Positions 7,069 through 64,000 of a stretch of DNA of 64,000 nt are shown piece by piece. The notes under the pieces were generated by a model. That model was not told the origin of the DNA, did not search any database, and saw nothing but the letters and a program-made list of their open reading frames with translations. The stretch is from NCBI GenBank assembly GCA_964566225.1, contig CAZMHV010000004.1, positions 248 through 64,247 of the forward strand. The letters are read 5' to 3'. Numbering within the stretch: the first letter of the stretch is position 1; the number at the start of each line of letters is the position of its first letter. Origin of the DNA: an uncultured Gammaproteobacteria bacterium. GTDB taxonomy: Bacteria > Patescibacteriota > Patescibacteriia > Magasanikbacterales > UBA922. The translations under genes were made by a program, and so were the position numbers.

Positions 7069-7246
7069 AAATGCGAGTATTTGACACCAATGGCATTCTC
7101 AGGTAGTGTATATATATTCTGTGGCACAGCACCAGCCCAGTGGAACCTCCTCGGTAGGAAGTAAGAGCCATGACTGAAAGCTCTTTCGGGAAAGTCCATA
7201 TGGTACCAGGCTTTGAGATTTGACAATAGAAAAAAGTAAAACGTTC

Positions 7247-7330
7247 GGGTGGAACCGTCTTAATATTTTAGGACCCCGGCAAGTGGATTTCTGCAATATG
7301 TTGTGGAGGTTCACTTGTCGGGGTTTTTTG
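7247..7330 (+). promoter_or_regulatory. T-box-like motif (GGGTGGAACCG) followed by an intrinsic terminator, in the thrS leader
   Basis: 7247-7257 matches the T-box core GGGUGGNACCG. A 12-bp stem (7274-7285 / 7312-7323, one G-U pair) plus T6 follows. thrS is a classical T-box-regulated gene in low-GC bacteria. Confidence 0.3.
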
Positions 7331-7340
7331 TTTCTTCATC

Positions 7341-7512
7341 GTGAACTGATGTGAATGAAATTTTGTCTAAATGAAAAATGGGGGTCTCACCATTACTCAA
7401 AAGTTGAAACTCGGTCGCCTGAGACGACCTCAAACATCAACTTTTGCCCTTCGGGACGTAATGGTTCGCTCCACATTTTTCATGCGACAAAATTTCATTC
7501 ACATCAGTTCAC
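7341..7512 (+). repeat. 27-bp perfect inverted repeat (7341-7367 / 7486-7512) flanking a 118-bp structured core, directly upstream of thrS
   Basis: GTGAACTGATGTGAATGAAATTTTGTC and its exact reverse complement. The core contains a GTCTCA/TGAGAC stem and a CCC-TTC-GGG hairpin. Confidence 0.6.
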
Positions 7513-25387: not shown

Positions 25388-25522
25388 GGGAGAGAGACTT
25401 TTTAAAAAATTTTTGGCTGCGGGATCGCTCTCACGAAGGTCCCTTCGCCCTGACGGGACTCGGGGGACCTTCGTGTATTCGCTAGGTCCTCGCTCAAAAA
25501 TTTTTTAAAAAGTCTCTCTCCC
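25388..25522. repeat. 28-bp perfect inverted repeat (25388-25415 / 25495-25522) enclosing a 79-bp GC-rich core with a nested 10-bp hairpin
   Basis: GGGAGAGAGACTTTTTAAAAAATTTTTG and its exact reverse complement. Inner hairpin CGAAGGTCCC...GGGACCTTCG. Confidence 0.6.
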
Positions 25523-53683: not shown

Positions 53684-56353
53684 TTGAACTTACTTTGTAT
53701 GCAATCTGCTCGTCGACATGAAATCTTACAAGAGAGGAGTCTTTTTGTTGATGAACCCGAAAATGATAGAAGAGAAAAAGAATGGAATCCAGAAAAAACA
53801 TTTTTGATTCGTCAATTAGTGGGTGTGCTTGATCGGGTTGATGCACAAACTGGACCAGTCGGAAGAAAAATTTTACATAATTTTTCGAGAGGTCAAATTA
53901 CTCTCGAAGAATTACAGACAGAATTAGAACAGGCTCCAGATTTTGGTGATTTTTGTGAGCATGTATATGATTACCTTGAAAGAGAGGGTGTGCTTATGCG
54001 TAAAGGGGAAGATTTCTTGGTAGATATGTATCGACTTACACACAGAAAGTTTGCAGGAATTGATAATAAAAAATATGAAACAAATAGAATTAAGAAGAGT
54101 AGAAAAAATAAATTTAGTGATGAATGGCTAGAACAAAACGCAAATTTGCATCATGGTAGATTGGTAGATTTACTCCAAAATGCCTTTTTACAACAAGAAG
54201 TATATGACCTGGATGCTTATGAAGATTGGGAAAAATCTGGTGCAAATCCACAAAAAAAACCTGAAAAAAAATTTCTTTTTTACAACCCACAATCAACTAC
54301 AGAAGCCTTTGATAGAGAAACGATTCAAGGGGCTCACTTTCATATTTTACCTTCTGAAATTTTTGGCAAAAAAGCAGATCATTATTCAGATAATTTAGCT
54401 GATGCAGCTTTTGATGAAGTCACCCTCGCCTGTCTTATTTTTCATCCAAACTATGGTGATGGCAAAAGGGAATCCGGTGTGCTCTTTGTGCGTGATCATG
54501 AGACAAGAGAGTATAGAAAAATTTCTAGAGATTGGTTTGCCAAATCAGGAATGAAATTTGGAGGAGAGTTAGAAGAAGGTAATATTCGAAAGTTTCTTGC
54601 TTCTCCAAAGTTTTTTTTGGCAGAAGGTGGCTACCCTCATCTCACTGAAAAGAATCTTTTAACCGCAACAGATTTTAAGACCATGGCAGGGAGTGAATAT
54701 GCCGAGAAGTATGGAACAAGTCGGGATATTACTCAGAAAAGGGGTATGGTGATGATTGATAAAGTCCACTATACGCTTGGGGTAGAATTTGCCCCCACTT
54801 CTGAAAAGAAATATCGTCTGTATCAACTGTCAGAAATGGTTGGGGGCATTGTAGAAGTTGATCCTGAAACTGGCGAGGATATTCAAATGACCCATGTCAT
54901 TGATATGGTAGGCAAAGATGATCCTCGTCGAGCTGAAAGAAAGGTCTTGACTGCTCCGCAGACCAGTATACATATTCGAGATTTCAATACTGAAGAATCC
55001 AAAATTCTTTTTGAAAAACATCTCACAGGAGGAGAAGCTTTTGAGTTTGCCACTCTGTTGCAGCTCAAACAAAAATTGGCAAAAAAGGCGAATGTTTCTT
55101 TTGAAAGTCTCTCGCCGGGAGAACAGGCTGGGCTTTTGCTCGTCTATCGTAACTGCACTGAAGAAGAACAAAAGAAAATGGATAGTTTTTTGGAAACAAA
55201 AAAAGAAGCGGGCTTTCCTGTGCTTCTGCTTGGTCAGTATGAAAAAAATTTATTTCCTTTGCTTGAAAAGATTGATCAAAAATATTCAGTGCATGAACAG
55301 GCTGCTATTTTTGAAAAAATTGCTGACGTGATTCGTTCACTTCAAACTGTGGAAGAAAAGGTGAAAGAATTTTTTGTTGAAGAGGGAAAGGAAATAAACA
55401 CCAATGATATTTCGCAAGAAATAATGAAACGGGCGGCCAAGCTTATTGAAAAATTTGCCACTGAACCAAAAGCAACCATAAAAATAAGTGAACTGGTCAT
55501 GCGGCTTAGTAGAATCAAAGAAGACATCATGCTTTTTGCTGTTATGTTTAAAGTCGCTGTTAAAGGAGACAAGCATATTGATGTAAAGGAAGTAAAGGGC
55601 ATGGATTTGCAGCATTTAAATTTTGAAGAACTCACTGACAGCGATAAAGAACAAATGGATGAAATTATTCAAAAAAATTGGAGTGATCGAGATCTGTATG
55701 GAGAAAAGAAAATAAAAGAATTTCATGAACTCATGAAAACAGACAAAAATTCACGATACTATGTTATGCGAAAAGATGGAAAGATTACTTCGTTTATTCG
55801 TTTTAAAGATAAAGAAAAAGTGTTTGGGGAACCCATACGCAAAGAGGGTGGATACTTTAATGTCGATCCAGACTTTCGTGGTTCGGGATTTGGTGAAGCT
55901 ATGATGCTCGCTTCTATTATTAAAGAAGGTGAAACAGGTATTATTGATGCAGTGGTCCATCCGGATTTTGATATTGGTATTAGGTATGTAGAAGAAACTG
56001 GTTGTGATATTGTTGGGTTTGGACCAGATAAAGTTGGGACCATGCGTTTTATTTTGGAGTGTGACGATCAAAAAAATAAAAAATCTTTTACTCGTAACCA
56101 AACGGAAGAAGAAGTAATGAATTTTATCGTGAATGATTCTGTTGAAAACCAAATACGGCAACAAAAAAAAGTAATTGGTATAAACTTCAACCCAAAATCT
56201 CGTGAAGATGGAGAAAAGATAAAACTTTTGGCAAGAGAGGGTTACCGAGGAACCAGATATTTTAATAATCCGAATGGAAAAGGGAGAATTATTGTTTTTG
56301 AGTTAGACGAACAAAAAAGGATGGATATTATACAATCGAAGATTGCGAGGTAG
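53684..56353 (+). CDS. 889-aa protein of unknown function with C-terminal GNAT-like acetyltransferase domain
   Basis: C-terminal RGSGFGEAMM (acetyl-CoA-binding Q/RxxGxG/A motif). The rest is unrecognised. Confidence 0.55.
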   Translation: MNLLCMQSARRHEILQERSLFVDEPENDRREKEWNPEKTFLIRQLVGVLDRVDAQTGPVGRKILHNFSRGQITLEELQTELEQAPDFGDFCEHVYDYLEREGVLMRKGEDFLVDMYRLTHRKFAGIDNKKYETNRIKKSRKNKFSDEWLEQNANLHHGRLVDLLQNAFLQQEVYDLDAYEDWEKSGANPQKKPEKKFLFYNPQSTTEAFDRETIQGAHFHILPSEIFGKKADHYSDNLADAAFDEVTLACLIFHPNYGDGKRESGVLFVRDHETREYRKISRDWFAKSGMKFGGELEEGNIRKFLASPKFFLAEGGYPHLTEKNLLTATDFKTMAGSEYAEKYGTSRDITQKRGMVMIDKVHYTLGVEFAPTSEKKYRLYQLSEMVGGIVEVDPETGEDIQMTHVIDMVGKDDPRRAERKVLTAPQTSIHIRDFNTEESKILFEKHLTGGEAFEFATLLQLKQKLAKKANVSFESLSPGEQAGLLLVYRNCTEEEQKKMDSFLETKKEAGFPVLLLGQYEKNLFPLLEKIDQKYSVHEQAAIFEKIADVIRSLQTVEEKVKEFFVEEGKEINTNDISQEIMKRAAKLIEKFATEPKATIKISELVMRLSRIKEDIMLFAVMFKVAVKGDKHIDVKEVKGMDLQHLNFEELTDSDKEQMDEIIQKNWSDRDLYGEKKIKEFHELMKTDKNSRYYVMRKDGKITSFIRFKDKEKVFGEPIRKEGGYFNVDPDFRGSGFGEAMMLASIIKEGETGIIDAVVHPDFDIGIRYVEETGCDIVGFGPDKVGTMRFILECDDQKNKKSFTRNQTEEEVMNFIVNDSVENQIRQQKKVIGINFNPKSREDGEKIKLLAREGYRGTRYFNNPNGKGRIIVFELDEQKRMDIIQSKIAR

Positions 56354-57134
56354 AATTTGGTTTTATATTTGAAGGGGCAATACCCGCATTCCAGATAAAT
56401 TCGAAAATATTTTTAAACATGCCAGCAATTTCTGGATTCATGATTTCAAAACCAATCTGTTCTTTTTCAGTGAGAGTAAAGAAAAGGATACTGTTGTCAA
56501 ATATTTGAATATTGGTTTTAAATGGTGAAAAATCTTTGGGCAAGAATTTGACGTCAGTTGATGTAATATCATTTTTAGCATATCGCTCCAATGCTTTTGG
56601 TGTTTCTACCACAAGCATTTTTTTTACAATATTTTTTTCTTTTCGTTTTTTGACATATTCCGTGTTCAAGTCTCCTGCAAATTCCAAAATAGGATCAATA
56701 GTCATAAAAGTATAAATACAGTTTTTGGCTTCGAGTGAGGTAAATAAGGCATCTTTGATACCGTCTAATCCTTCGTAGTATTTGACGCCTGGTTTGTTTA
56801 TACCGAGGTTGTATATCCCAGCCAGTGACTGCACCATATTTTTGAACTCACCCTCGAGAAGCGACACCTCACGTTTTTTTTCTTCCATGAGGGTAAAGAG
56901 CTTAGTTGGGTGATTTGGCTTGTAGTAGGCTACGCGGCCTTCTTTGCGGTATTCCACAAAGCCTTCTGCAAGGAGGGTGGGGAGGGCTTCGTACACTGTG
57001 GCGCGAGAGAGGGGAACCTTTTCAAGGAGCCTCGGCACGGTCATTTCTCCGTTTTCCACCAGGGTGAGGTAAATCTCGGCAGTGGTGGGTTCCATGCCGG
57101 TTTTGAGGAGGGTTTCGTGGAGGGTGGTGTTCAT
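56328..57134 (-). CDS. TrmB-family transcriptional regulator
   Basis: N-terminal winged HTH (TVPRLLEKVPLSRATVYEALPTLLAEGFVE) and TrmB-like C-domain. Operator-like palindromes lie upstream. Confidence 0.65.
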   Translation of the reverse strand: MNTTLHETLLKTGMEPTTAEIYLTLVENGEMTVPRLLEKVPLSRATVYEALPTLLAEGFVEYRKEGRVAYYKPNHPTKLFTLMEEKKREVSLLEGEFKNMVQSLAGIYNLGINKPGVKYYEGLDGIKDALFTSLEAKNCIYTFMTIDPILEFAGDLNTEYVKKRKEKNIVKKMLVVETPKALERYAKNDITSTDVKFLPKDFSPFKTNIQIFDNSILFFTLTEKEQIGFEIMNPEIAGMFKNIFEFIWNAGIAPSNIKPNSTSQSSIV

Positions 57135-57369
57135 AGGGGTAGGGGAGACTTCCTTTTGAGGAGGTTTTTTTGTTTTAATTTAGCCAAATTTTGAACTTTG
57201 ACCAATAAAGAGTTTAGCTGCCAAAAACACGTTTTTTCTCTTATTCTAGCATTATTATACCATATCTGCTTTAATCTGTCAAGTATTTACTAGACAGATT
57301 ATTTTGACTACTATTTATTATATTTTAGCCAAATTTGGTATAACATATAAACCAAAGTCTGGCATAGTA

Positions 57370-57398
57370 TTGACAAATTCGGCAAAACCTGGTATACT
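57370..57398 (+). promoter_or_regulatory. near-consensus sigma-70 promoter TTGACA-N17-(TGG)TATACT
   Basis: Read directly: TTGACAAATTCGGCAAAACCTGGTATACT. Divergent from the TrmB-like gene. Confidence 0.55.
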
Positions 57399-57404
57399 AG
57401 CTTG

Positions 57405-57545
57405 TTACGATGAAAGACCGAGAAGAAGAACGAACCGAGTAACACCTTACAACTGAACCAAAGTAGCCCCAAAGGAAGGAGAGAGCCTACGGGGAGCAAG
57501 CCAAGCAACAGCCTGGTAAGCAACTACTCTATATATAGATATAGA
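57405..57545 (+). ncRNA. candidate ~170-nt small RNA or riboswitch-like leader (unclassified)
   Basis: Bounded by the strong promoter at 57370 and the terminator at 57546-57575. No ORF apart from a 10-codon leaderless frame. Internal repeats ACCGAG x2 and GTTAC/GTAAC pairing. Confidence 0.3.
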
Positions 57546-57575
57546 AACCACTCTCTCCACAGGGTGGTTTTTTTC
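57546..57575 (+). terminator. intrinsic terminator
   Basis: AACCAC-TCTCTCCACAGG-GTGGTT followed by T7. Confidence 0.55.
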
Positions 57576-58187
57576 GCAAAGACGAATCCGCCTTGGGCGG
57601 ACATCACTTAGGGCGCTGGAGCTCTTGATCAAAAGTACTCACTTTCAATGCTTGTGTGAGGAAGGATCAAGACCCAAGCGGCCTACATGATTCCCACTGC
57701 TCAAATAATACTTGGTTTGCTCTCTGGAGAGATGAGCGAAGCAGGGTGAGAACAGAGGTTGAGTCCAAAAGCCATTACAATGAAATAATTTCTTTGACCC
57801 ATATGAAAAATAGGAGAGAGAATCCTATCGGTGAAAGAAATTTTCAATTCTGAACCCTCTGTGAGACTGAAACATGTCGTAACAGAGAATTTGCTCGAAG
57901 GTTACACTTTGAGAACCTACGGAGGTCGATAGATGCCCTTGACGAAAGTCGAGCAGCAACTCCCTCGCGGCAGGTCTACTACTCGCCTCAGAACGAGAAG
58001 TAGTACCGAGTGCGTCCCGCCTTCATGGATCTGTCAAAAGATTGATGGAGGCAGGGATACTCTGTATTACAGAGAGATCTTTAGAAAAAAACAAGGCGAT
58101 GAGGAAAGGCATTTTGATTATCACGAGAGTGGTGAGAAGAATGCCTTTCCCCGCGCCTGGCAAGCGTAGTCAACAAATGGAGATTGT

Positions 58188-58823
58188 GTGGATACCACCA
58201 AGCCGGATTTCGGCACACTCAACACCCTCAGCGCGTTCGACCACAACACCGTCGGCACCAAGGTGACCGACCCCCGCAAGTTCTACAAGTTTCTGACGGT
58301 CGCGGTTGCCACCCACGACACCTCGAAGGACAAGGCGACTGGCCAGCACTTCCTGATCCTGCCGAAGGAAGCCTTCAGCACCGTCACGGCGGGAGTCGGA
58401 CGTCGGAGCAAGGAACCCAGGGACTACGTGCCGCGCCTTCACCGGGACACCGTCGAGCTCTACCTCAAGCGTGATTTCGCGGCCGCCGTGGAGAGTCTGT
58501 CCGTCGTGGTGTACACGCGGCAGGCCTACCTGGCGGATCCGGACATCAATCCGGACAAGGTGGCCGAGCGCTTCCCCGGCAACGAGGAGAAGCTCGCGGA
58601 CGCCATCAAAGAGACGAAGCGGATTGAAGGATCATCCTTCACCCACATCGTCGTCGCCGTTCTGGCATCCGCAGGCCCACGTGCTCCGTTGTCGCCCATT
58701 CGGTTGGTGAACAACCTCGCCGGTGGCAACAACGAGGTCAACGAGTGGAGCAAGGAGGACATCGTCATGAAGGCGCAGCTGACCAAGGCCTACTACGATG
58801 AGTGGTGCACGGTCGCGGACTGA
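58188..58823 (+). CDS. hypothetical protein A of the GC-rich module (211 aa)
   Basis: GTG start 5 nt after GGAG. Third codon positions almost all G/C. No family recognised. Confidence 0.6.
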   Translation: MDTTKPDFGTLNTLSAFDHNTVGTKVTDPRKFYKFLTVAVATHDTSKDKATGQHFLILPKEAFSTVTAGVGRRSKEPRDYVPRLHRDTVELYLKRDFAAAVESLSVVVYTRQAYLADPDINPDKVAERFPGNEEKLADAIKETKRIEGSSFTHIVVAVLASAGPRAPLSPIRLVNNLAGGNNEVNEWSKEDIVMKAQLTKAYYDEWCTVAD

Positions 58824-59557
58824 TCTCGGCGACGCGGTGCCAAACAAAGAAACCCGGTAGCATCCCACTCACAGACCGACAAGGTCTGGGACAAGCTACC
58901 ACTCAACGGTTTCACTCAGCACAAAATCCAGTGCTGAAATAAATGTTATGAGTCACCTGCATGTTCCAAAAGAACAAAGTGGTGAGCCAAGAGGAAGCAG
59001 TATCCTCCACGGCGAGAAGCCAAACGCACCGGTCGGCGAGAGAGAAGCACTCACTCGCCAACCCTGCAGAAATTTCAATTCGTTGAAGTTTGTGAAGGGG
59101 AGAAAATAGTAACAACTGAAGTTTTTCTTCAAAAGTGGAGAAAAGAACAGTCGCTACTACAACAAGAAAGTCCAGAATACAAAAGTAACTTTGGTCTCAC
59201 AAGAGCAAAGTGAAAAATTGGATGAAGGATGTTACAGCAGCATAATGCATGTGGTGTAGAGAGTGAAGATCATTACAACTGAATATTGCCAAAGTGAAGA
59301 AGAATGTTATTTTCTTTGGCAAGCGCAGGTTTACCAAAACGTGCGTATTGAAAATTGCTTGTCGCTCTGCTGTCTTTACTCAAGGGCAGTGAATGCGATA
59401 AGCAACTCCGGGAAGATAATGTCTTCGACCCGGAGTCCCGACAATCCTCCTCCTGTGAACCGGCGGCACGAGTGCCAATGGAGCAGGCGTCCAGAGGTGG
59501 ACGAAAAATGGAGGCTCCCCCGAGGGTTCGTGGGGAGAGAAGTGGAGAATTTCGACA

Positions 59558-60400
59558 ATGAAGAACGGGCTCAACCCCCAGCGTGGTTCTTTTTCCTGCC
59601 ACCCCGCCATCAGCGCGACGGTCAACTTCCCCCTCACCCTGAACATGGCCAACGCCTTCGTGCCCCAGGTCACCGAGTTCTTCCAGAACTGCGGGGACCT
59701 GCGCGGCTTCAGCAGCTACGGCCTCCCGGGCCAGGGCGTCGCGGCCATCCTGACCCTCCCGGTGCTGGAGATGGCGTGCGGGTTCCCCGTCACGCCGATC
59801 TACGACATCGGGCAGAAGAAGGTGGTCGGCGGGCTCAACCTGGGCGAGTTCCGTCACAGCGTGGTCCGCCCCCGCCGCGCCGAGCTGACCCGCACCGAGG
59901 CCTACGCCGGATACACCGTCATCGACGGCGCCGGTCGGGGTCTGACCCCGCTCCAGCGCGAGGAGCTCGAGGGCATCCTCAGCTCCACGGACATCCGGGT
60001 CGTCGCCGCACCCACGGGCCAGATGGACTTCGGCGACCCCACGAAGGGGATCGTCGAGACCCTCCTGGCCACGGGGCTGAGCTTCGACGACTGGACCTCC
60101 GGCCGCGTCGTGTACCTGCCCCCGGGAATGGGGCTGGCCGCGGTCGTCCAGGCAACGGCGATCTACGGTCTCTCCGAGGCCTGGCCCCGTACCCTGCGCC
60201 TCAACAAGCGCGAGGCCGATGGCCAGTTCCACCTCGACGAGATCGTCGACCCCCAGGCCCTCCGGCAGTTCGGGGTCAGCCTGGCGGCGGCCTGGCGCGA
60301 CGCGGAGCCGACGGTCACGCTCAGCGGCGCGGTCTCTGAGGACTTCCGCCGGCTCCTCACCGAGCTGGCCGAGGCCCACGGCGTCACGATCCGCGGCTGA
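59558..60400 (+). CDS. hypothetical protein B of the GC-rich module (280 aa; alternative start at 59645)
   Basis: Very high GC3 in this frame only, GGAG 10 nt upstream. The overlapping 358-aa and 384-aa ORFs are Arg/Pro/Gly-rich shadow frames. Confidence 0.6.
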   Translation: MKNGLNPQRGSFSCHPAISATVNFPLTLNMANAFVPQVTEFFQNCGDLRGFSSYGLPGQGVAAILTLPVLEMACGFPVTPIYDIGQKKVVGGLNLGEFRHSVVRPRRAELTRTEAYAGYTVIDGAGRGLTPLQREELEGILSSTDIRVVAAPTGQMDFGDPTKGIVETLLATGLSFDDWTSGRVVYLPPGMGLAAVVQATAIYGLSEAWPRTLRLNKREADGQFHLDEIVDPQALRQFGVSLAAAWRDAEPTVTLSGAVSEDFRRLLTELAEAHGVTIRG

Positions 60401-60657
60401 CGCGACGTTCCGCGTCGCTCTCCTCACGAGTAGCGTGTGAGTGAGAGGTCAACATCCTACCAAACCGCTACATTCTCGCCCAGTTCTGGGCAAATCCAAC
60501 AACAATGCACGAGGTCAGTGGGAAGCAAGCACAACGCTTCCCACCCTCAAATAAGTTCTCCAAACAAGTTTGGATGGAGGGCTTTGAGAGGAAAAGTCGT
60601 TCCGTAAAAACACCGGAACGCCTGGGCGCTCACCCAGTCCCGACAAACGGAGGAAAT

Positions 60658-61206
60658 GTGAGCAAGCGAATCGGTGATCGGGTTTTTTCCCTTCAGTTCA
60701 TGATCATCTTCGGTATTCTAATCGGAATCCTGTCCGCGTTGTTCGACTGGTGGAGCTGGATCGAGCCCATCACTGGGGTCGCGACCCTCGCCCTCTCCGC
60801 CGCCGCATGGTGGCAGACGAGACGGGCGAAGGAAGCGTACTACCAGGTGTCCGACAACCACGACGGCAACTGGATCGTCGCGCTGGAAGTCGGCCGCCCC
60901 ATCAGCGAGGCGGTCAAGGATCGTTTCGGCAGTCTGGATGTTCTCGTCCGTGTTCAGGATGTGATTGGAACCTCGGTTCTTCTCACGGAAGATCACTACG
61001 AGAAGGTGGCGCGTGCGGTTTACTCCGCGTGTGCTCTCTGCCAGAACAAGCCGATCGACTTGATCGTTTCAGGCCCGAACGGGCTGGTTTTCATCGTTGG
61101 ACAGATGCTGGGCATGGATCGCTTCCGCGTCCAGGTCTGGCAGTACTACAACGGCGAATACCAGCTAATCCCGCGACCGACGCGGGACTGGCTCGAGCAC
61201 CGCTGA
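60658..61206 (+). CDS. 2-TM membrane protein with ~115-aa C-terminal alpha/beta domain (candidate membrane effector/sensor)
   Basis: GTG start 4 nt after GGAGG. Basic N-terminus, TM1 FMIIFGILIGILSALF, TM2 ITGVATLALSAAAWW, then a domain with DLIVSGPNGLVFIVGQMLG and RVQVWQYYNGEYQLIP. Confidence 0.55.
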   Translation: MSKRIGDRVFSLQFMIIFGILIGILSALFDWWSWIEPITGVATLALSAAAWWQTRRAKEAYYQVSDNHDGNWIVALEVGRPISEAVKDRFGSLDVLVRVQDVIGTSVLLTEDHYEKVARAVYSACALCQNKPIDLIVSGPNGLVFIVGQMLGMDRFRVQVWQYYNGEYQLIPRPTRDWLEHR

Positions 61207-61484
61207 CCCTCTCAAATGTCCCGACTCCACACATGTCGGGAAAGTCCAGAGATCCTTCTTTGGGCGACACTCGGTAGTTCGCGATCAGCACTCACGATCG
61301 CAGCTCCCACGAGATTTTTATTTGTAAAAGTTTCATGGGAGAAAATAAAAACAATGGGTGGCTGGCAGCGCCCAAAATTTTTTTCTTTGTATCTGCCAGA
61401 AATTTTTTGGAAACCATTGCCATAAAGCCCCACGAGCAAATGCTCGACGGAAGTGTGGGGAACAAACGGCAGTGGTGGAGGAAA

Positions 61485-61853
61485 ATGACGAAATCGATTT
61501 TCGTTGTTGACCACCCCTTTCAGCAGGTCAAGGTGATGACGGTCAACGAGGACGGAGAAATCTGTTCCTCGACCGGTGATCACCTCTATGACCTGTCGGA
61601 AGACGGGGACGAGGTCAGCACGTCCATCGACTACGCGAGGGCTTTTCCTCACGTGGCGTTTTACGAGCGCAAGCTCGATGATGCCAGTGGGGACAAGCCG
61701 TTCTTCAGTCTGAGCCAAGAGCGAGCGCAAAGCTTTGTCGATTTCAAGCAGGCGTGCCTGCGAGAGATCAACGACGCTGGCCTCGATGACACTGCTGCCG
61801 CAATCAAGCGGCAGAACGTCATCGACGCCCTGCGCACGCGCTTCGGCTTCTGA
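61485..61853 (+). CDS. hypothetical acidic protein D (122 aa)
   Basis: ATG 4 nt after GGAGG. The upstream part of track ORF 61335..61853 is AT-rich and probably non-coding. Confidence 0.45.
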   Translation: MTKSIFVVDHPFQQVKVMTVNEDGEICSSTGDHLYDLSEDGDEVSTSIDYARAFPHVAFYERKLDDASGDKPFFSLSQERAQSFVDFKQACLREINDAGLDDTAAAIKRQNVIDALRTRFGF

Positions 61854-62301
61854 AGAGCGCGTAGTCGTATCCTCCCCTAGGTCTTGAGCAGATGAGGGGG
61901 AGTGAAAAAGAAAGCGGACCGGCAACGCGCCGACTGAGTGGGGAGAAAGATCTCACTTTGAGCTGCCAGCAACCGTGCAGCAAGACCGCAAGCTTAGGTT
62001 GGTAACCTCAACAACCAAAACTCGGGATTTGGCGATGTGCACACGTCGCCACCCAACACAAGCCCAGCAAAAATTTTTTTGAGGAGAGCACGATGAAACT
62101 CTCTCCTCGGAGTGCATGAAGATTTTCTTTGAAAATTTTTAGCTCCTTGAACGGATAATTGCTGTGCTGCTGTTGGGTGAAACGATTTTTATTTGAGAGA
62201 GAAATAAAAATTGAACCTAAATTCGTGTTATACGAAGTGTTCTTTGTAATTCATCTCGTGCTCTCTCCACCCAGAGAGTTTTTTTGTTTCAGACAAAAAA
62301 A

Positions 62302-62352
62302 CTTCTGCCGCTTTGAAAACATTTTTAGGAGTGTTTGATGAAGCGGCAGAAG
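62302..62352 (+). promoter_or_regulatory. 10-bp perfect inverted repeat CTTCTGCCGC...GCGGCAGAAG sequestering the RBS and start of a 13-codon upstream ORF (62338-62379) that ends 12 nt before gene E
   Basis: AGGAGTG-N4-ATG lies inside the loop. The mini-ORF MKRQKFLNTNNFL stops just before GGAGG-N6-GTG of the 62392 gene. Confidence 0.35.
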
Positions 62353-62391
62353 TTTCTGAACACCAACAACTTTCTATGACGGAGGTGAAAC

Positions 62392-62904
62392 GTGGGAAAT
62401 CAGCCCACCAAAATCCTCGGCCGCTTGCGAAGCGGCGAGGTCGTGCAGGATCGGGCGCAGTCCCACCTGCACGCGGGAGTCATCGAGCTGCTCCCGGAAG
62501 TGCTCAGCTCGACCGATTCGCGCGGCAAGGCGAATTTCGTCCGTGAGTTCCGGTTCAATCGCGTGGTTGGTATCAACAACCGCGTGAAGACCGGAGCGAA
62601 CGACGAGATCGTCTTCGCCCAGCGCGTGGGGCGCACCGGGCTGTCGCGGTTCGTGAAGAATCGCCAGCCCGAGCCGACCCGGTATGTGACCGTCGTCCTC
62701 AACCGCCGCGCGAGTGGCGTGTATGAGGTGTTGACGGCCTACATCGGTTCGGCCGCCCCGCGCGAGCCATGGGATCCTCGCGCGGATCGAGAAGTCTCTG
62801 CACGGTTCTGGGCCTCCGAAGCGCTGCTTTGGGGCTCTGAGCCGGTCGTCGATGGAACTGAAACAACGAACATGCCGGATTCGTTCCGGCTCGAAGGAGT
62901 GTGA
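62392..62904 (+). CDS. hypothetical protein E (170 aa), immediately upstream of and nearly abutting the AAA+ ATPase gene
   Basis: GTG start after GGAGG, high GC3, stop 3 nt before the ATPase ATG. No family recognised. Confidence 0.55.
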   Translation: MGNQPTKILGRLRSGEVVQDRAQSHLHAGVIELLPEVLSSTDSRGKANFVREFRFNRVVGINNRVKTGANDEIVFAQRVGRTGLSRFVKNRQPEPTRYVTVVLNRRASGVYEVLTAYIGSAAPREPWDPRADREVSARFWASEALLWGSEPVVDGTETTNMPDSFRLEGV

Positions 62905-62907
62905 GAC

Positions 62908-64000
62908 ATGGCCGACCAGGCCACCCTGAAGCGGGCCATGGCACTCAAGCCCAAGATTGAGGCCAACACCAACGTCGTCCTGCGCGAGTTCATCAAGCGG
63001 GACGACATCGTGCGGGCAGTCTGGCTCGCGCTCCTCTCCGACTCCGCCGCGTTCTTCCTGGGCCCGCCGGGCGTCGCCAAGACCGCCACGGTGCAGCGCC
63101 TCGCGCGCGAGATCACCGGGTGCGTGTTCTTCGAGGCCCTGATGCCGGCCATCGTTTCGGCGGATCAGCTCTTCGTGGAGTCCACCTCCATCGAGGAGCA
63201 CCCGACGGACGACGGTGGCAAGGCCATCGCGGTCAAGAACAAGCTGGGGCGGGCCACCAAGGCGCACGTCTTCTTCGCCGACGAGGTGTGGAAGACCGAG
63301 CCGATGGTGCTCCAGCCCCTGCTCGACCTGGCCCGGGCCGACGGAGTCCGTCACGATGGGTCGTTCCATGCGACCCCGATCATGGCCTTCCTCGCCGCGT
63401 CGAACGAGCTGCCCGAAGAGGGGAGCAAGCTCGGCGCGATGTGGAGCCGGATGATCATTCGCGTGGACGTTCGGGGTCTCGACCGCTCCGGCCGCAAGGC
63501 CATGGTCGCCTCGCGTCTCCGTCAGGAACGCAAGGAGCCCGTGCCCCAGGCCACGACGAACGACCGCCTCAGCGTGGAGGACTTGAAACTCCTCCAGCAG
63601 GCGCGGCCGCACGTGGAGCTCCCCGACGAGATCATCGAGATCGTTCTCGACCTGATCGAGGAGTTGACGAAGCAGGACGAGGCTGGATTCGGTTGGCTCC
63701 GCGAGGACGACCGCCGGTTCGGATTCATCTGCGACGTCCTGCAGTCGGCTGCCCTGCTGGCCGGTCGCTCGGTCGTCACCAAGGCCGACCTCGCCGCGCT
63801 GGAGTGGATGATGTGGAATGAGCCGAGCCAGATCCCCGCGATCAAGGCCGTACTCGCCCCCCTCATTCGGACGCCGGCCGGCGAGGCACAGGAGATGGTC
63901 GACGCCCTCATGGCGCCGGATGGCGTAGTGGATGGCTTCCTGCAGAACAAGCACGAGAAGTCCACCGACGCCCTCCGGCAATGCCGGGAAACCATGGCGG
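62908..64000 (+). CDS. RavA/MoxR-family AAA+ ATPase, 3'-truncated by window end
   Basis: Own translation: ...FFLGPPGVAKTATVQRLAREI (MoxR-type Walker A GxPGxAK[ST], cf. RavA LLGPPGIAKS) and Walker B HVFFADEVWK. Open to the window end, hence absent from the ORF track. Confidence 0.75.
   Translation, partial: MADQATLKRAMALKPKIEANTNVVLREFIKRDDIVRAVWLALLSDSAAFFLGPPGVAKTATVQRLAREITGCVFFEALMPAIVSADQLFVESTSIEEHPTDDGGKAIAVKNKLGRATKAHVFFADEVWKTEPMVLQPLLDLARADGVRHDGSFHATPIMAFLAASNELPEEGSKLGAMWSRMIIRVDVRGLDRSGRKAMVASRLRQERKEPVPQATTNDRLSVEDLKLLQQARPHVELPDEIIEIVLDLIEELTKQDEAGFGWLREDDRRFGFICDVLQSAALLAGRSVVTKADLAALEWMMWNEPSQIPAIKAVLAPLIRTPAGEAQEMVDALMAPDGVVDGFLQNKHEKSTDALRQCRETMA

What the first reader, a model, noticed from the sequence alone, without database searches (positions are those of the whole stretch)
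58827..59557. Long, hairpin-dense, mid-GC non-coding spacers between the GC-rich genes
The GC-rich ORFs are separated by spacers of about 730 bp (58827-59557), 255 bp (60404-60657), 275 bp (61210-61484) and 535 bp (61857-62391). All are non-coding in every frame and much lower in GC than the flanking genes, unlike normal high-GC intergenic DNA. They are packed with perfect 6-10 bp inverted repeats, for example GACGCG-ACGTTC-CGCGTC directly after the stop of B, GGGAAGC-N9-GCTTCCC, CGTTCCG-N9-CGGAACG, CTGGCAG-N25-CTGCCAG and GGCGAG-N13-CTCGCC. Each gene is thus insulated by terminator-like and possibly promoter-like elements. This fits an unusually modular organisation, structured RNAs, or synthetic design.
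Basis: seen in the sequence. Interest (0 to 1): 0.6.

Follow-up and report, generated by a model that had tools for sequence, protein, structure and literature searches.

The report
Conserved structured RNA spacers, swapped genes
The long gaps between GC-rich defence genes in this small-celled (CPR) bacterium are selectively conserved, hairpin-rich RNA elements not found in Rfam, and sister genomes keep two of them while the genes beside them differ.

Summary
Genes A-F have GC3 of 0.74-0.94. They are separated by 257-788 nt spacers of 45-54% GC. The spacers hold 2.6 times the perfect inverted repeats of shuffled controls. They fold far better than shuffles (z -6 to -12), and better on the sense strand.

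They match no Rfam family or tRNA. I found no sign that they are repeats, gene remnants, attC sites or promoter carriers.

The host is a Candidatus Magasanikbacteria chromosome. It carries a TrmB-flanked island with a Csx15-like protein, a TM-SAVED protein and a MoxR-vWA pair. CPR relatives share this architecture, and several also share the raised GC.

Two sister genomes keep the leader (N1, 57400-58075) at 94-97% identity, while neighbouring synonymous sites are 77-87% identical. They also keep most of the reported spacer (N2, 58849-59405). Gene A is replaced and B is absent there.

Two motifs recur with strong covariation:
- a 196-nt, seven-helix leader domain (57880-58075);
- a 68-nt two-hairpin element upstream of effector genes (60596-60663).

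Best reading: these are cis-acting structured leader and intercistronic RNAs of one TrmB-controlled operon, built from portable modules around acquired GC-rich genes. Transcription and function are inferred, not shown. "Synthetic design" and "promoter insulation" are not supported.

The parts
57254..57301 (-). Promoter of the TrmB-family regulator gene (TTGACA-17-TATAAT, 12/12) overlapped by a 14+14 nt palindrome (57272-57301), the probable TrmB operator.
   Evidence: A similar AATCT..GTCAAGTA..GACAGATT sequence lies next to the TrmB gene in L023.
57370..57398 (+). Strong sigma-70-type promoter (TTGACA-17-TATACT, 11/12, with TG) pointing into the GC-rich cluster. It is the only strong + strand promoter match in 56000-64000.
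   Evidence: The intergenic region is 94-95% identical in sister genomes L039 and L040.
57400..58075 (+). Module N1: a conserved, structured non-coding leader RNA.
   Evidence: z = -8 to -10 for the whole 788-nt leader 57400-58187. Positions 57400-58014 are 96.7-97.5% (L039) and 94.4-96.5% (L040) identical; identity falls to 87%/58% over 58015-58083. Codon position 3 of adjacent TrmB is 80%/77% identical and of rpsA 87%/77%. Stem changes: 9 compensatory, 15 one-sided pair-preserving, 4 pair-breaking. No Rfam match.
57478..57575 (+). Putative transcription attenuator within N1. An intrinsic terminator hairpin plus U-tract (57546-57575) competes with an alternative pairing of GGAGAGAG (57478-57485) to the terminator's left arm.
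   Evidence: The MFE shows the terminator and the centroid shows the alternative pairing. The terminator is conserved in L039 and L040. Function is inferred.
57880..58075 (+). N1c: a 196-nt, seven-helix domain that recurs in the TrmB-to-B leader of other islands.
   Evidence: Model R2 hits: L023 (E 3e-12), L019 (1e-4), L035 (2e-4), all on the + strand between TrmB and B. 35 of 61 pairs change on both sides, 93.8% of cells paired, 0/500 shuffles reach this, slid controls 40-46%.
58076..58848 (+). Cassette A: GC-rich ORFan gene A (58188-58823, 211 aa, GC3 0.85) with its own 112-nt 5' UTR.
   Evidence: Homology with L039 stops at 58075 and resumes at about 58849. L039 has 346 unrelated nt there. 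A has no Pfam, PADLOC, PHROG or PDB match.
58849..59405 (+). Module N2: the core of the reported 58827-59557 spacer. It is a host-like-GC (about 43%), hairpin-rich conserved non-coding module.
   Evidence: 92.5% identical to L039. 59148-59361 is 78% identical in L040, directly after N1. The whole spacer has z = -8.6 to -11.8. Paired positions differ less than unpaired ones: 6.4% vs 11.7%, p=0.04, using the window-only structure. Model R3 finds it only in these three genomes. L040's last hairpin has a different sequence but the same shape.
59406..59557 (+). GC-rich (about 0.6) hairpin-bearing 5' UTR that belongs to the B cassette.
   Evidence: Homology with L039 ends at 59405. GC profile; fold.
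59558..60400 (+). Gene B (280 aa, GC3 0.94), with a Csx15-like domain.
   Evidence: PADLOC Csx15, E 3.5e-6. The family profile hits the Csx15 structure 9teu, E 1.2e-5. Only 35 homologues in 5.8 billion proteins; the few with a taxonomic label are mostly CPR.
60401..60657 (+). Spacer 2: an array of stable hairpins.
   Evidence: z = -5.5 to -6.3.
60596..60663 (+). Effector-leader motif. Hairpin 1 has an A-rich loop and hairpin 2 has a GCUCA loop. They are followed by UCC, an A-rich tract, GGAGG and an (A/G)UGAG start.
   Evidence: Model R1 hits upstream of SAVED-TM genes in L035, L028, L023, L033 and L011, and upstream of a CxxxCxxC (radical-SAM-like) gene in L035 (E 7e-9 to 3e-13). 10 of 12 pairs change on both sides, 96.9% of cells paired, 0/500 shuffles reach this.
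60658..61206 (+). Gene C: transmembrane + SAVED protein (182 aa).
   Evidence: Pfam SAVED, E 4.8e-7; PADLOC SAVED4, E 1.9e-18.
61207..61484 (+). Spacer 3. Its AT-rich core (61293-61402) is a portable two-hairpin module that includes a terminator-like hairpin at 61355-61384.
   Evidence: z = -6.4. 61293-61402 is 78% identical to L040 in a different gene context, with a second partial copy there. Terminator scan.
61485..61853 (+). ORF D (122 aa, with an SD sequence). It is an ORFan with an exceptionally strong predicted RNA structure, so its coding status is uncertain.
   Evidence: Only itself is found among 1.84 billion representatives. z = -8.6 to -9.9 globally and -4.24 in local windows. GC3 is 0.74.
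61854..62391 (+). Spacer 4: hairpin array with a terminator-like site (62260-62286) and a perfect 15-bp hairpin (62299-62355) before gene E.
   Evidence: z = -7.6 to -8.2. Terminator; inverted repeat I7.
62392..64000 (+). Genes E (170 aa, phrog_23674) and F (bpMoxR AAA+ ATPase), 3 nt apart. A vWA gene follows 18 nt after F, beyond the window.
   Evidence: L002 continues the contig: MoxR 401 aa, then vWA 562 aa.

Best explanation
**What it is.** The spacers are cis-acting structured RNA segments: a 5' leader plus intercistronic leaders. They belong to one long sense-strand transcript. That transcript starts at the consensus promoter at 57370-57398, divergent from a TrmB-family regulator gene. 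It runs through a horizontally acquired, GC-rich conflict island (A, Csx15-like B, TM-SAVED C, D, E, MoxR, vWA) in a Candidatus Magasanikbacteria chromosome.

**Shown.**
- The spacers are non-coding and far more structured than chance. The structure is stronger on the sense strand.
- The leader N1 evolves about 4-8 times more slowly than neighbouring synonymous sites. N2 and the spacers of the L016/L021 island pair evolve about 2-3 times more slowly.
- Stems keep pairing through compensatory and G-U/A-U changes.
- A 196-nt leader domain recurs in islands of unnamed or differently binned hosts. A 68-nt two-hairpin motif next to the ribosome-binding site recurs upstream of effector genes in other islands. 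Both show strong covariation.
- The non-coding modules N1 and N2 persist in sister genomes where the adjacent protein genes differ.

**Inferred.**
1. TrmB gates the promoter through the palindrome at 57272-57301.
2. A terminator/antiterminator pair at 57478-57575, and U-tract hairpins at 61355-61384 and 62260-62286, attenuate read-through.
3. The many U-less hairpins act as decay barriers or processing sites. These would set segment-specific mRNA stability and so the dose of potentially toxic effectors.
4. The two-hairpin motif controls translation initiation. It may do so by pairing its GCUCA loop with the (A/G)UGAGC start region, or by binding a protein.
5. The mid-GC, A-rich composition is what RNA-structure constraint produces whatever the genome GC. 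This explains the contrast with the GC3-rich cargo genes.
For: - **Structure and strand bias:**
- **Only one strong promoter, few true terminators:**
- **Attenuator alternative pairing:**
- **Purifying selection.** L016/L021 spacers are 85-90% identical against 67% at codon position 3. N1 (57400-58014) is 94-97% identical against 77-87% at position 3 of rpsA and adjacent TrmB.
- **Compensatory changes:**
- **Motif R1:** E down to 3e-13, 10/12 covarying pairs.
- **Motif R2:** E 3e-12 in L023, 35/61 covarying pairs, always between TrmB and B on the sense strand.
- **Relatives.** Spacers in relatives have z from -2 to -10, most between -4 and -8. Several relatives share the architecture, and in low-GC hosts the raised GC.
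- **Literature.** Long, relatively GC-rich intergenic regions in bacterial genomes are known to be enriched for structured ncRNAs (PMC6429828, PMC8723152).
Against: - There are no expression data. Co-transcription, attenuation and processing are all inferred.
- Ribosome-binding sites of island genes are no more occluded than those of housekeeping genes: 0.46 vs 0.47 unpaired probability. A stop-proximal anti-SD closing helix is not supported (p=0.31). Simple translational masking is therefore not the general role.
- N1 and N2 persist in L039 and L040 although the downstream genes differ. This fits a gene-independent (trans or scaffold) role as well as a cis role.
- At about 65-72% protein identity most spacer sequence is not alignable.
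- Covariation counts come from 6-9 sequences aligned to the models, which favours the model structure.
- With a structure predicted from the window alone, the paired/unpaired contrast is modest (N2, p=0.04) or absent (N1).
Confidence: 0.55

Rival explanations
1. N1 and N2, and perhaps other spacers and ORF D, are stand-alone large structured non-coding RNAs. They would act in trans or as a ribonucleoprotein partner, sensor or scaffold of the TrmB/MoxR-vWA/SAVED system. They would not be mere leaders of the adjacent genes.
For: - N1 is conserved at the level of codon positions 1-2, in paired and unpaired positions alike.
- N1 and N2 persist in L039 and L040 where gene A is replaced and B is absent. 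In L040 N1 is followed directly by part of N2.
- An intrinsic terminator 150-175 nt after the promoter could release a discrete small RNA.
- N1c recurs in other islands at the same position.
- ORF D is an ORFan with z about -9.
Against: - No RNA ends are known.
- Every instance lies upstream of, and co-oriented with, protein genes. This is typical of cis-regulators.
- N2 was found only in three closely related genomes.
- No known large ncRNA class matches.
Confidence: 0.2
2. Each gene is an independent transcription unit, and each spacer is an ordinary terminator plus promoter.
For: - Three hairpins have U-tracts.
- In the related islands L016 and L021, gene B has its own consensus promoter, conserved in both.
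- Spacers of 150-250 nt in relatives are not far from normal unit boundaries.
Against: - In the window the spacers contain only one 9/12 promoter match, and it sits inside a conserved hairpin.
- Most of the roughly 40 inverted repeats lack U-tracts.
- Spacers reach 734-788 nt, against roughly 80 nt for typical gaps between ORFs of >=150 aa in the same genome (read).
- A terminator/promoter model does not predict the conservation and covariation of multi-helix domains.
Confidence: 0.12
3. The hairpin modules act at the DNA level as recombination or landing sites. They would allow GC-rich gene cassettes to be exchanged, in an integron-like framework that lacks a classical integrase.
For: - Sharp homology breakpoints fall at the bases of hairpins (58075, 59405) and about 25 nt after the stop codon of A.
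- The cargo is co-oriented and compositionally foreign, downstream of one strong promoter next to a divergent regulator.
- The sp3 module and the R1 motif occur next to unrelated genes.
- In L021 the island abuts a tRNA-like 3' end.
Against: - The scan for attC-type end pairs found one pair, in mid-spacer, against 0.5 expected.
- No integrase was found among the proteins scanned. The scan did not cover every ORF.
- G-U-preserving substitutions and the sense-strand energy bias point to RNA, not DNA, as the selected molecule.
- Homologous recombination in conserved flanks explains cassette replacement without a dedicated machinery.
Confidence: 0.08
4. The spacers have no function. They would be decayed genes, MITE-like repeats, template-switch palindromes accumulating in junk DNA, an assembly chimera or a synthetic construct.
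For: - Spacer sequences are unique and mostly not alignable beyond close relatives.
- Logan contigs break inside N1 and N2.
Against: - The spacers evolve about 2-8 times more slowly than synonymous sites.
- Compensatory changes and cross-lineage motifs are present.
- No protein remnants and no repeats.
- Identical sequence in separate assemblies of two runs, and natural diverged copies in other samples.
Confidence: 0.03

Closest known systems
Cis-regulatory leader RNAs (riboswitch/attenuator and ribosomal-protein-leader type)
   Same: - Located between a promoter and the regulated ORFs on the sense strand.
- Conserved multi-helix domains with covariation.
- A terminator/antiterminator alternative lies 80-175 nt after the promoter.
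- A motif next to the SD sequence and start codon precedes effector genes.
   Different: - No ligand or binding protein is known, and there is no Rfam match.
- Total untranslated length (0.26-0.79 kb per spacer, about 2.6 kb in all) is far above that of typical leaders.
- Elements also sit between cistrons.
- Ribosome-binding sites are not measurably occluded.
Large structured bacterial ncRNAs found by long/GC-rich intergenic-region screens (OLE, GOLLD, HEARO, ROOL, raiA; Breaker-lab GC-IGR approach, PMC6429828, PMC8723152)
   Same: - Hundreds of nucleotides long.
- Higher GC than the host's non-coding DNA.
- Very negative folding z-scores, with purifying selection and covariation.
   Different: - None of those covariance models matches.
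- The distribution seen so far is a handful of CPR islands.
- The elements are interleaved with protein genes rather than forming one discrete gene.
Intercistronic stabiliser hairpins / REP-BIME elements in polycistronic operons
   Same: - Arrays of stable stem-loops without U-tracts lie between co-oriented cistrons.
- They plausibly set segmental mRNA stability.
   Different: - REP elements form a dispersed repeat family. Here every hairpin is unique and nothing recurs elsewhere in the 64 kb.
- The spacers are far longer.
Integron gene-cassette arrays (Pc promoter, attI, ORF-attC units)
   Same: - One strong promoter next to a divergent gene.
- Co-oriented, compositionally foreign ORFs are separated by hairpin-forming DNA.
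- Cargo is exchanged between sister genomes.
   Different: - No IntI was seen.
- The spacers are multi-hairpin and 2-10 times longer than attC sites.
- They lack the R''/R' core sites at ORF ends.
- Selection acts on RNA-type pairing.
MoxR-vWA NTP-dependent conflict systems (Kaur et al. 2020, PMC7159879) with cOA-type sensor domains (SAVED; Csx15, PMC13148439)
   Same: - A bpMoxR ATPase is followed immediately by a vWA protein.
- Variable sensor/effector genes accompany them (TM-SAVED, Csx15-like; Csx3, HD and a CxxxCxxC radical-SAM-like protein in relatives).
   Different: - That paper did not classify CPR organisms for its multicellularity analysis, and its main text never uses the word "intergenic".
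- No nucleotide cyclase was identified in the locus.
- The TrmB regulator and long structured leaders are not part of the described systems.

Membership tests
Any Rfam 15 family (including riboswitches, T-box, OLE, GOLLD, HEARO, ROOL, raiA, 6S, RNase P, group I/II introns) | Covariance-model score at or above the family's gathering threshold | tested here: not met
   There are 0 hits at gathering threshold in the whole window. In E-value mode on 57100-62500, and on N1 and N2 alone, only sub-threshold microRNA/snoRNA-type chance hits appear.
Intrinsic (Rho-independent) terminators | GC-rich stem-loop followed directly by a U-tract | tested here: inconclusive
   The feature is met at 57546-57575, 61355-61384 and 62260-62286. 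The other hairpins in the five spacers lack a U-tract. The class describes a minority of the elements.
Sigma-70 promoters inside each spacer (insulated transcription units) | -35/-10 hexamers with 16-18 nt spacing in each spacer | tested here: not met
   The only strong + strand promoter is at 57370-57398. Inside the spacers there is one 9/12 match, at 59286-59313.
Integron cassette array | attC site (57-141 nt, R''=RYYYAAC ... R'=GTTRRRY) directly downstream of each cassette ORF | tested here: not met
   One end-pair match exists, at 62051-62178 in mid-spacer, against 0.5 +/- 1.0 expected. No match was found in the other four spacers.
Integron cassette array | Adjacent IntI tyrosine recombinase with attI | not tested
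   Proteins next to the island are a TrmB regulator, a GNAT-domain protein and S1. Ten other large ORFs are housekeeping or unknown. The remaining ORFs of the window were not scanned.
Dispersed repeat / MITE / REP family | Multiple similar copies in the genome | tested here: not met
   BLASTN (word size 7) of the spacers against each other, the 64-kb window and related loci gives only chance-level or self-palindromic matches. Only 64 kb of the genome was available.
Pseudogene remnants | Residual protein-level similarity to genes of related islands | tested here: not met
   tblastn hits of all ORFs from 10 related loci fall inside B, C, E and F. The one exception is a weak hit in the leader (57693-57809, E 3e-4, 31% over 39 aa), from a short antisense ORF and judged spurious.
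Riboswitch/attenuator-type leader | Conserved structured domain upstream of mutually exclusive terminator/antiterminator helices | tested here: inconclusive
   The terminator (MFE) and the GGAGAGAG:CUCUCUCC alternative (centroid) both occur in 57400-57585. The segment is 96.5-96.7% conserved. No ligand is known and there is no covariation in this nearly invariant part.
Conserved structured RNA (generic criterion) | Compensatory base-pair changes above controls in homologues from different lineages | tested here: met
   R1 motif: 10/12 pairs change on both sides, 0/500 shuffles reach this, slid controls 29-42% paired. R2 domain: 35/61 pairs, 0/500 shuffles, slid controls 40-46%. Caveat: the alignments are fitted to the models and hold 6-9 sequences.
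MoxR-vWA conflict system (for the gene set) | bpMoxR-type AAA+ ATPase immediately followed by a vWA protein | tested here: met
   PF20030 bpMoxR, E 6.7e-22. In L002 a vWA gene lies 18 nt downstream. The same pair occurs in relatives.
Csx15 (for protein B) | Sequence/profile similarity to the Csx15 Rossmann-like cOA-binding domain | tested here: met
   PADLOC Csx15, E 3.5e-6, residues 165-237. The B-family profile hits PDB 9teu (csx15), E 1.2e-5, profile positions 115-232. This is domain-level similarity only; activity was not tested.

The most novel reading that the evidence does not exclude
The hairpin-rich modules (N1, N2, the sp3 core and the two-hairpin effector leader) may form a conserved RNA framework specific to CPR bacteria, into which foreign GC-rich defence genes are plugged and swapped. 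N1/N1c may be a new large structured RNA that works with the TrmB regulator and the MoxR-vWA/SAVED/Csx15 proteins, for example as an infection- or nucleotide-sensing switch. On this reading the RNA, not the proteins, is the invariant core of the system.
Probability: 0.2. Interest if true: 0.8.

Novelty: new variant of a known kind. Interest (0 to 1): 0.62.

Why it matters
**For RNA biology.** CPR/Patescibacteria have tiny, tightly packed genomes. About 2.6 kb of selectively maintained non-coding RNA in one locus is therefore a notable investment.

**Candidate RNA motifs.** The data yield two motifs with covariation support and no Rfam match:
- a 196-nt, seven-helix leader domain;
- a 68-nt two-hairpin element next to the start codon of SAVED-type effector genes.

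**For defence biology.** Post-transcriptional RNA control may be an integral, conserved layer of MoxR-vWA and cyclic-oligonucleotide-type conflict islands.

**For genome evolution.** Non-coding modules can outlast the protein genes they flank.

**Next steps.** The covariance models can be run across CPR genomes, and the attenuator and the start-codon motif can be tested directly in vitro.

Tried and rejected
1. **Known RNA families and tRNA/tmRNA.** Nothing found.
2. **Spacers as repeats or MITEs, or sharing k-mers with the AT-rich genome.** No significant BLASTN similarity.
3. **Spacers as decayed genes.** No credible tblastn hit from relatives' proteins.
4. **Long-range translational coupling.** I tested whether the first 30 nt after each stop codon pairs with the next SD sequence. 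For 19 spacers the Fisher combined p is 0.31, and only 1 of 19 falls below 0.05. Rejected.
5. **General occlusion of ribosome-binding sites.** Unpaired probability is 0.46 for island genes against 0.47 for housekeeping genes, p=0.78. Rejected.
6. **Integron attC sites.** One match against 0.5 expected. Rejected.
7. **Conservation due to recent transfer of the leader rather than selection.** Rejected: the directly adjacent TrmB codons are 20-23% diverged at position 3, while 57400-58014 of N1 is 2.5-5.6% diverged.
8. **Paired/unpaired divergence contrast from the RNAalifold structure.** The raw figures (1.9% vs 16.5%) are biased by the method. With a structure from the window sequence alone they shrink to 6.4% vs 11.7%.
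9. **N2 in other islands.** Not found.
10. **Empty site in a closer strain.** The strain with 94% identical GyrA has lost synteny beyond the Big_7 gene, and no DNA was returned. Uninformative.
11. **Homologues of D, and the L040 72-aa ORF as a D relative.** None found.
12. **MAFFT alignments of the two-hairpin motif.** They were out of register. I replaced them with a single-sequence covariance model followed by model-based realignment.
Full report
**1. Observation**

The + strand from about 57.4 kb carries six GC-rich ORFs:
- A, 58188-58823
- B, 59558-60400
- C, 60658-61206
- D, 61485-61853
- E, 62392-62904
- F, 62908 onwards

They are separated by spacers of 734, 257, 278 and 538 nt and preceded by a 788-nt leader. 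E and F are only 3 nt apart.

Composition:
- Gene GC is 0.57-0.70, with GC3 of 0.74-0.94.
- Spacer GC is 0.45-0.54 and A-rich.
- The other 57 kb has GC 0.40.

Hairpin density and folding:
- Perfect inverted repeats (stem >=6, loop 3-30) number 40 in the five spacers, against 15.3 in dinucleotide shuffles. In the genes the counts are 50 against 36.
- Whole-spacer folding energies have z-scores of -6.3 to -11.8 on the + strand and -3.5 to -5.9 on the - strand.
- Mixed composition can inflate such z-scores, so I repeated the test in 120-nt windows. Spacers average z = -2.64 on the + strand and -1.83 on the - strand (Wilcoxon p=0.0014). Island genes average -1.32. Two 6-kb samples of the low-GC genome average -0.08 and -0.32.

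Logan contigs from two sequencing runs match the window at 100% across most of the region, including the B-C-D junctions. They leave 57853-57927 and 58977-59348 uncovered. This makes a chimeric assembly of the gene/spacer alternation unlikely.

**2. Context**

The low-GC part is a bacterial chromosome carrying gyrA, gyrB, gatB, thrS, argH and rpsA. GyrA is 77-80% identical to named Candidatus Magasanikbacteria MAGs, so the host is a CPR/Patescibacteria bacterium.

The GC-rich genes form a conflict-type island:
- B has a Csx15-like domain (PADLOC E 3.5e-6; family profile against PDB 9teu E 1.2e-5).
- C is a transmembrane SAVED protein.
- F is a bpMoxR ATPase. A vWA protein follows it 18 nt later, beyond the window.
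- A and D are ORFans.
- A TrmB-family regulator gene lies divergently upstream. Perfect-consensus divergent promoters and a palindrome separate it from the island.

B has only 35 homologues among 5.8 billion proteins. The few with a taxonomic label are mostly CPR: Saccharibacteria, Uhrbacteria and WWE3, plus one bin labelled Gammaproteobacteria.

Related loci share the architecture, although none carries every element. It runs: TrmB, a long leader, B, variable genes (SAVED-TM, Csx3, HD, a CxxxCxxC radical-SAM-like protein) separated by 110-720 nt spacers, then a tight MoxR-vWA pair. In the low-GC hosts examined the island runs roughly 10-30 GC points above the host. In those loci the spacers have z between -2 and -10, most between -4 and -8.

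**3. What the spacers are not**

- No Rfam family or tRNA matches.
- They show no similarity to each other, to the rest of the window or to relatives' spacers at 65-72% protein identity.
- No credible protein remnants are detectable.
- There are no attC-type ends beyond chance.
- They contain no strong promoter.
- Only three hairpins carry a U-tract.
- Ribosome-binding sites are not unusually occluded.
- A stop-proximal anti-SD closing helix is not supported.

**4. Evidence that they are functional RNA**

(a) *The island pair L016/L021.* Overall identity is 84%. The three spacers are 85-90% identical, while codon third positions are 67% identical. Paired spacer positions are 91% identical and unpaired ones 84%. 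Stem changes are mostly G-U/A-U switches, and indels fall in loops.

(b) *Two sister Magasanikbacteria contigs, L039 and L040.* Their rpsA regions are 94.7% and 87.4% identical to the window.
- They carry the TrmB N-terminus, the promoters and the leader up to 58075 (module N1).
- L039 also carries 58849-59405 (module N2), which is most of the reported spacer.
- L040 carries 59148-59361 directly after N1.
- Positions 57400-58014 of N1 are 96.7-97.5% and 94.4-96.5% identical. Third codon positions are 87%/77% identical in rpsA and 80%/77% in the adjacent 117 TrmB codons. The conservation therefore reflects constraint, not recent transfer.
- In N1, stem differences comprise 9 compensatory, 15 one-sided pair-preserving and 4 pair-breaking changes. 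Several hairpins in L040 are rewritten on both arms.
- In N2, paired positions diverge less than unpaired ones: 6.4% against 11.7% (p=0.04) with a structure taken from the window alone. The larger contrast from the RNAalifold structure is method-biased.
- In L040 the last N2 hairpin is replaced by an unrelated sequence of the same shape.

**5. Recurrent motifs**

*Two-hairpin effector leader (R1).* A covariance model built from the window's last 62 nt of spacer 2 plus the first 6 nt of gene C (60596-60663) finds the same element elsewhere. It lies upstream of SAVED-TM genes in L035, L028, L023, L033 and L011. It also lies upstream of a CxxxCxxC (radical-SAM-like) gene in L035 (E 7e-9 to 3e-13).
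- 10 of 12 pairs change on both sides.
- 96.9% of cells are paired.
- None of 500 shuffles reaches these values, and slid controls give 29-42%.
- Loop 1 is A-rich.
- Loop 2 is GCUCA, complementary to the conserved (A/G)UGAGC start region. This hints at a pseudoknot that sequesters the start codon. Because both sides are nearly invariant, the idea is inferred, not demonstrated.

*Leader domain N1c (R2).* A second model, of 57880-58075 (61 pairs, seven helices), hits L023 (E 3e-12), L019 (1e-4) and L035 (2e-4). Each hit lies on the sense strand between TrmB and B.
- 35 of 61 pairs covary.
- 93.8% of cells are paired.
- None of 500 shuffles reaches this, and slid controls give 40-46%.

*N2c (R3).* A model of 59230-59405 is found only in the three Magasanikbacteria.

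**6. Modularity**

Homology between the window and L039 breaks sharply at three points:
- at 58075, the base of a hairpin;
- at about 58849, where it resumes 25 nt after the stop codon of A;
- at 59405, the base of another hairpin.

Gene A with its 112-nt 5' UTR is replaced in L039 by 346 unrelated nt. B with its own 152-nt GC-rich 5' UTR is absent, and other GC-rich genes follow.

The AT-rich core of spacer 3 (61293-61402) recurs in L040 beside an unrelated small ORF.

The reported spacer is therefore composite. It consists of a conserved, host-like-GC module (N2) plus the 5' UTR of the incoming B cassette. At this locus the non-coding modules are more persistent than the protein genes.

**7. 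Mechanism**

*Shown:* sense-strand RNA-type structure, selection, covariation, a single strong upstream promoter, three U-tract hairpins, and a terminator/antiterminator alternative at 57478-57575.

*Inferred:* a TrmB-gated polycistronic transcript whose leader attenuates read-through. Its U-less hairpin arrays would act as decay barriers or processing sites. Its two-hairpin motif would tune initiation at effector genes. The mid-GC, A-rich composition is what structural constraint imposes whatever the genome GC. Long, relatively GC-rich intergenic regions are a known signature of structured ncRNAs (PMC6429828, PMC8723152).

I put this cis-regulatory reading at about 0.55. The alternatives are:
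- a trans-acting or scaffold large ncRNA, about 0.2;
- ordinary terminator-promoter insulation, about 0.12;
- a DNA-level cassette-exchange role, about 0.08;
- no function or artefact, about 0.03.

**8. Novelty and caveats**

Structured leaders, attenuators and intercistronic hairpins are known kinds of element. New here are four things:
- the scale (about 2.6 kb in a compact CPR genome);
- two covarying motifs with no Rfam match;
- their association with a TrmB/MoxR-vWA/SAVED/Csx15-like island;
- the persistence of RNA modules while cargo genes are exchanged.

The literature held in the searchable library describes the protein systems but, in my searches, not these RNAs.

Caveats:
- There are no expression data.
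- Few homologues are available (3-9 per motif).
- Model-fitted alignments favour the modelled structure.
- ORF D may itself be structured RNA rather than a gene.
- Only one metagenome scan and one genome scan were available.

Noticed in passing
window 7341-7512 and 25388-25522: Two unique, near-perfect long palindromic hairpins of about 170 and 135 nt. Each has AT-rich outer stems and a GC-rich core. They lie in intergenic regions of the low-GC genome (upstream of thrS, and between argH and its neighbour). Region z-scores are -8 to -13. They are self-complementary only and unrelated to each other or to the island spacers.
   Followed up: partly
window 7069-7340: The region upstream of thrS also holds a strong 24-bp hairpin followed by a U-tract (about 7270-7330). 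This might be a divergent T-box-like or other leader. Rfam reports nothing.
   Followed up: no
window 56328-57134 and 53684-56353: The TrmB gene is mosaic among sister genomes. Its first 117 codons are about 95-97% identical at codon positions 1-2. The C-terminal half and the adjacent 889-aa GNAT-domain gene do not align at the nucleotide level; whole-protein TrmB identity is 58-63%, and the neighbouring gene is 1158 or 963 aa in L039 and L040. The N-terminal part is also GC-richer (0.59) than the rest of the gene.
   Followed up: partly
window 61485-61853: ORF D has an SD sequence and GC3 of 0.74 but no homologue among 1.84 billion representatives. It folds into three long nested helical domains (z -8.6 to -9.9; local windows -4.24). 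It may be structured RNA rather than a protein gene, or both.
   Followed up: partly
window 62051-62178: A single inverted-repeat pair (ACCCAAC ... GTTGGGT, 128 nt apart) matches the generic attC end consensus. It sits in the middle of spacer 4, and its count is at chance level.
   Followed up: yes
L021 about 1085-1160 (left edge of the related island): A tRNA-like 3' end (GGTTCGAATCC T-arm, possible UUG anticodon) lies directly upstream of B's promoter in L021 but not in its 84%-identical relative L016. This suggests a tRNA-adjacent insertion site.
   Followed up: no
L035 7937-8800: A second copy of the two-hairpin effector-leader motif precedes a 266-aa protein with a CNFACPYC (CxxxCxxC) motif typical of radical-SAM enzymes. 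The protein was not scanned against family libraries. The motif is therefore not specific to SAVED genes.
   Followed up: partly
L023 5117-5613 (- strand): Two small overlapping ORFs of 87 and 78 aa sit inside the long TrmB-to-B non-coding region. I judged them RelE/ParE-like (a toxin-antitoxin pair) from the sequence by eye only.
   Followed up: no
L026 1893-2143 vs L027 5348-5599: A segment of about 250 nt downstream of B is duplicated at 89% identity within a related island. L026 also has an extra segment of about 120 nt relative to L027.
   Followed up: no
window 57853-57927, 58977-59348 and about 61969-61984: Logan assemblies of the same runs break inside N1, inside N2 and in spacer 4, not at gene boundaries. 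Strain heterogeneity or low coverage in the structured regions could explain this.
   Followed up: no
E domain: window 62392-62904; L014 12120-13817; L007 8510-10219; L017 13055-15040: The 170-aa protein E (phrog_23674) is free-standing here. In related islands it forms one domain of 565-661-aa proteins: C-terminal in L014 and L007 (the L007 protein has a faint Csx3 match) and N-terminal in L017.
   Followed up: no
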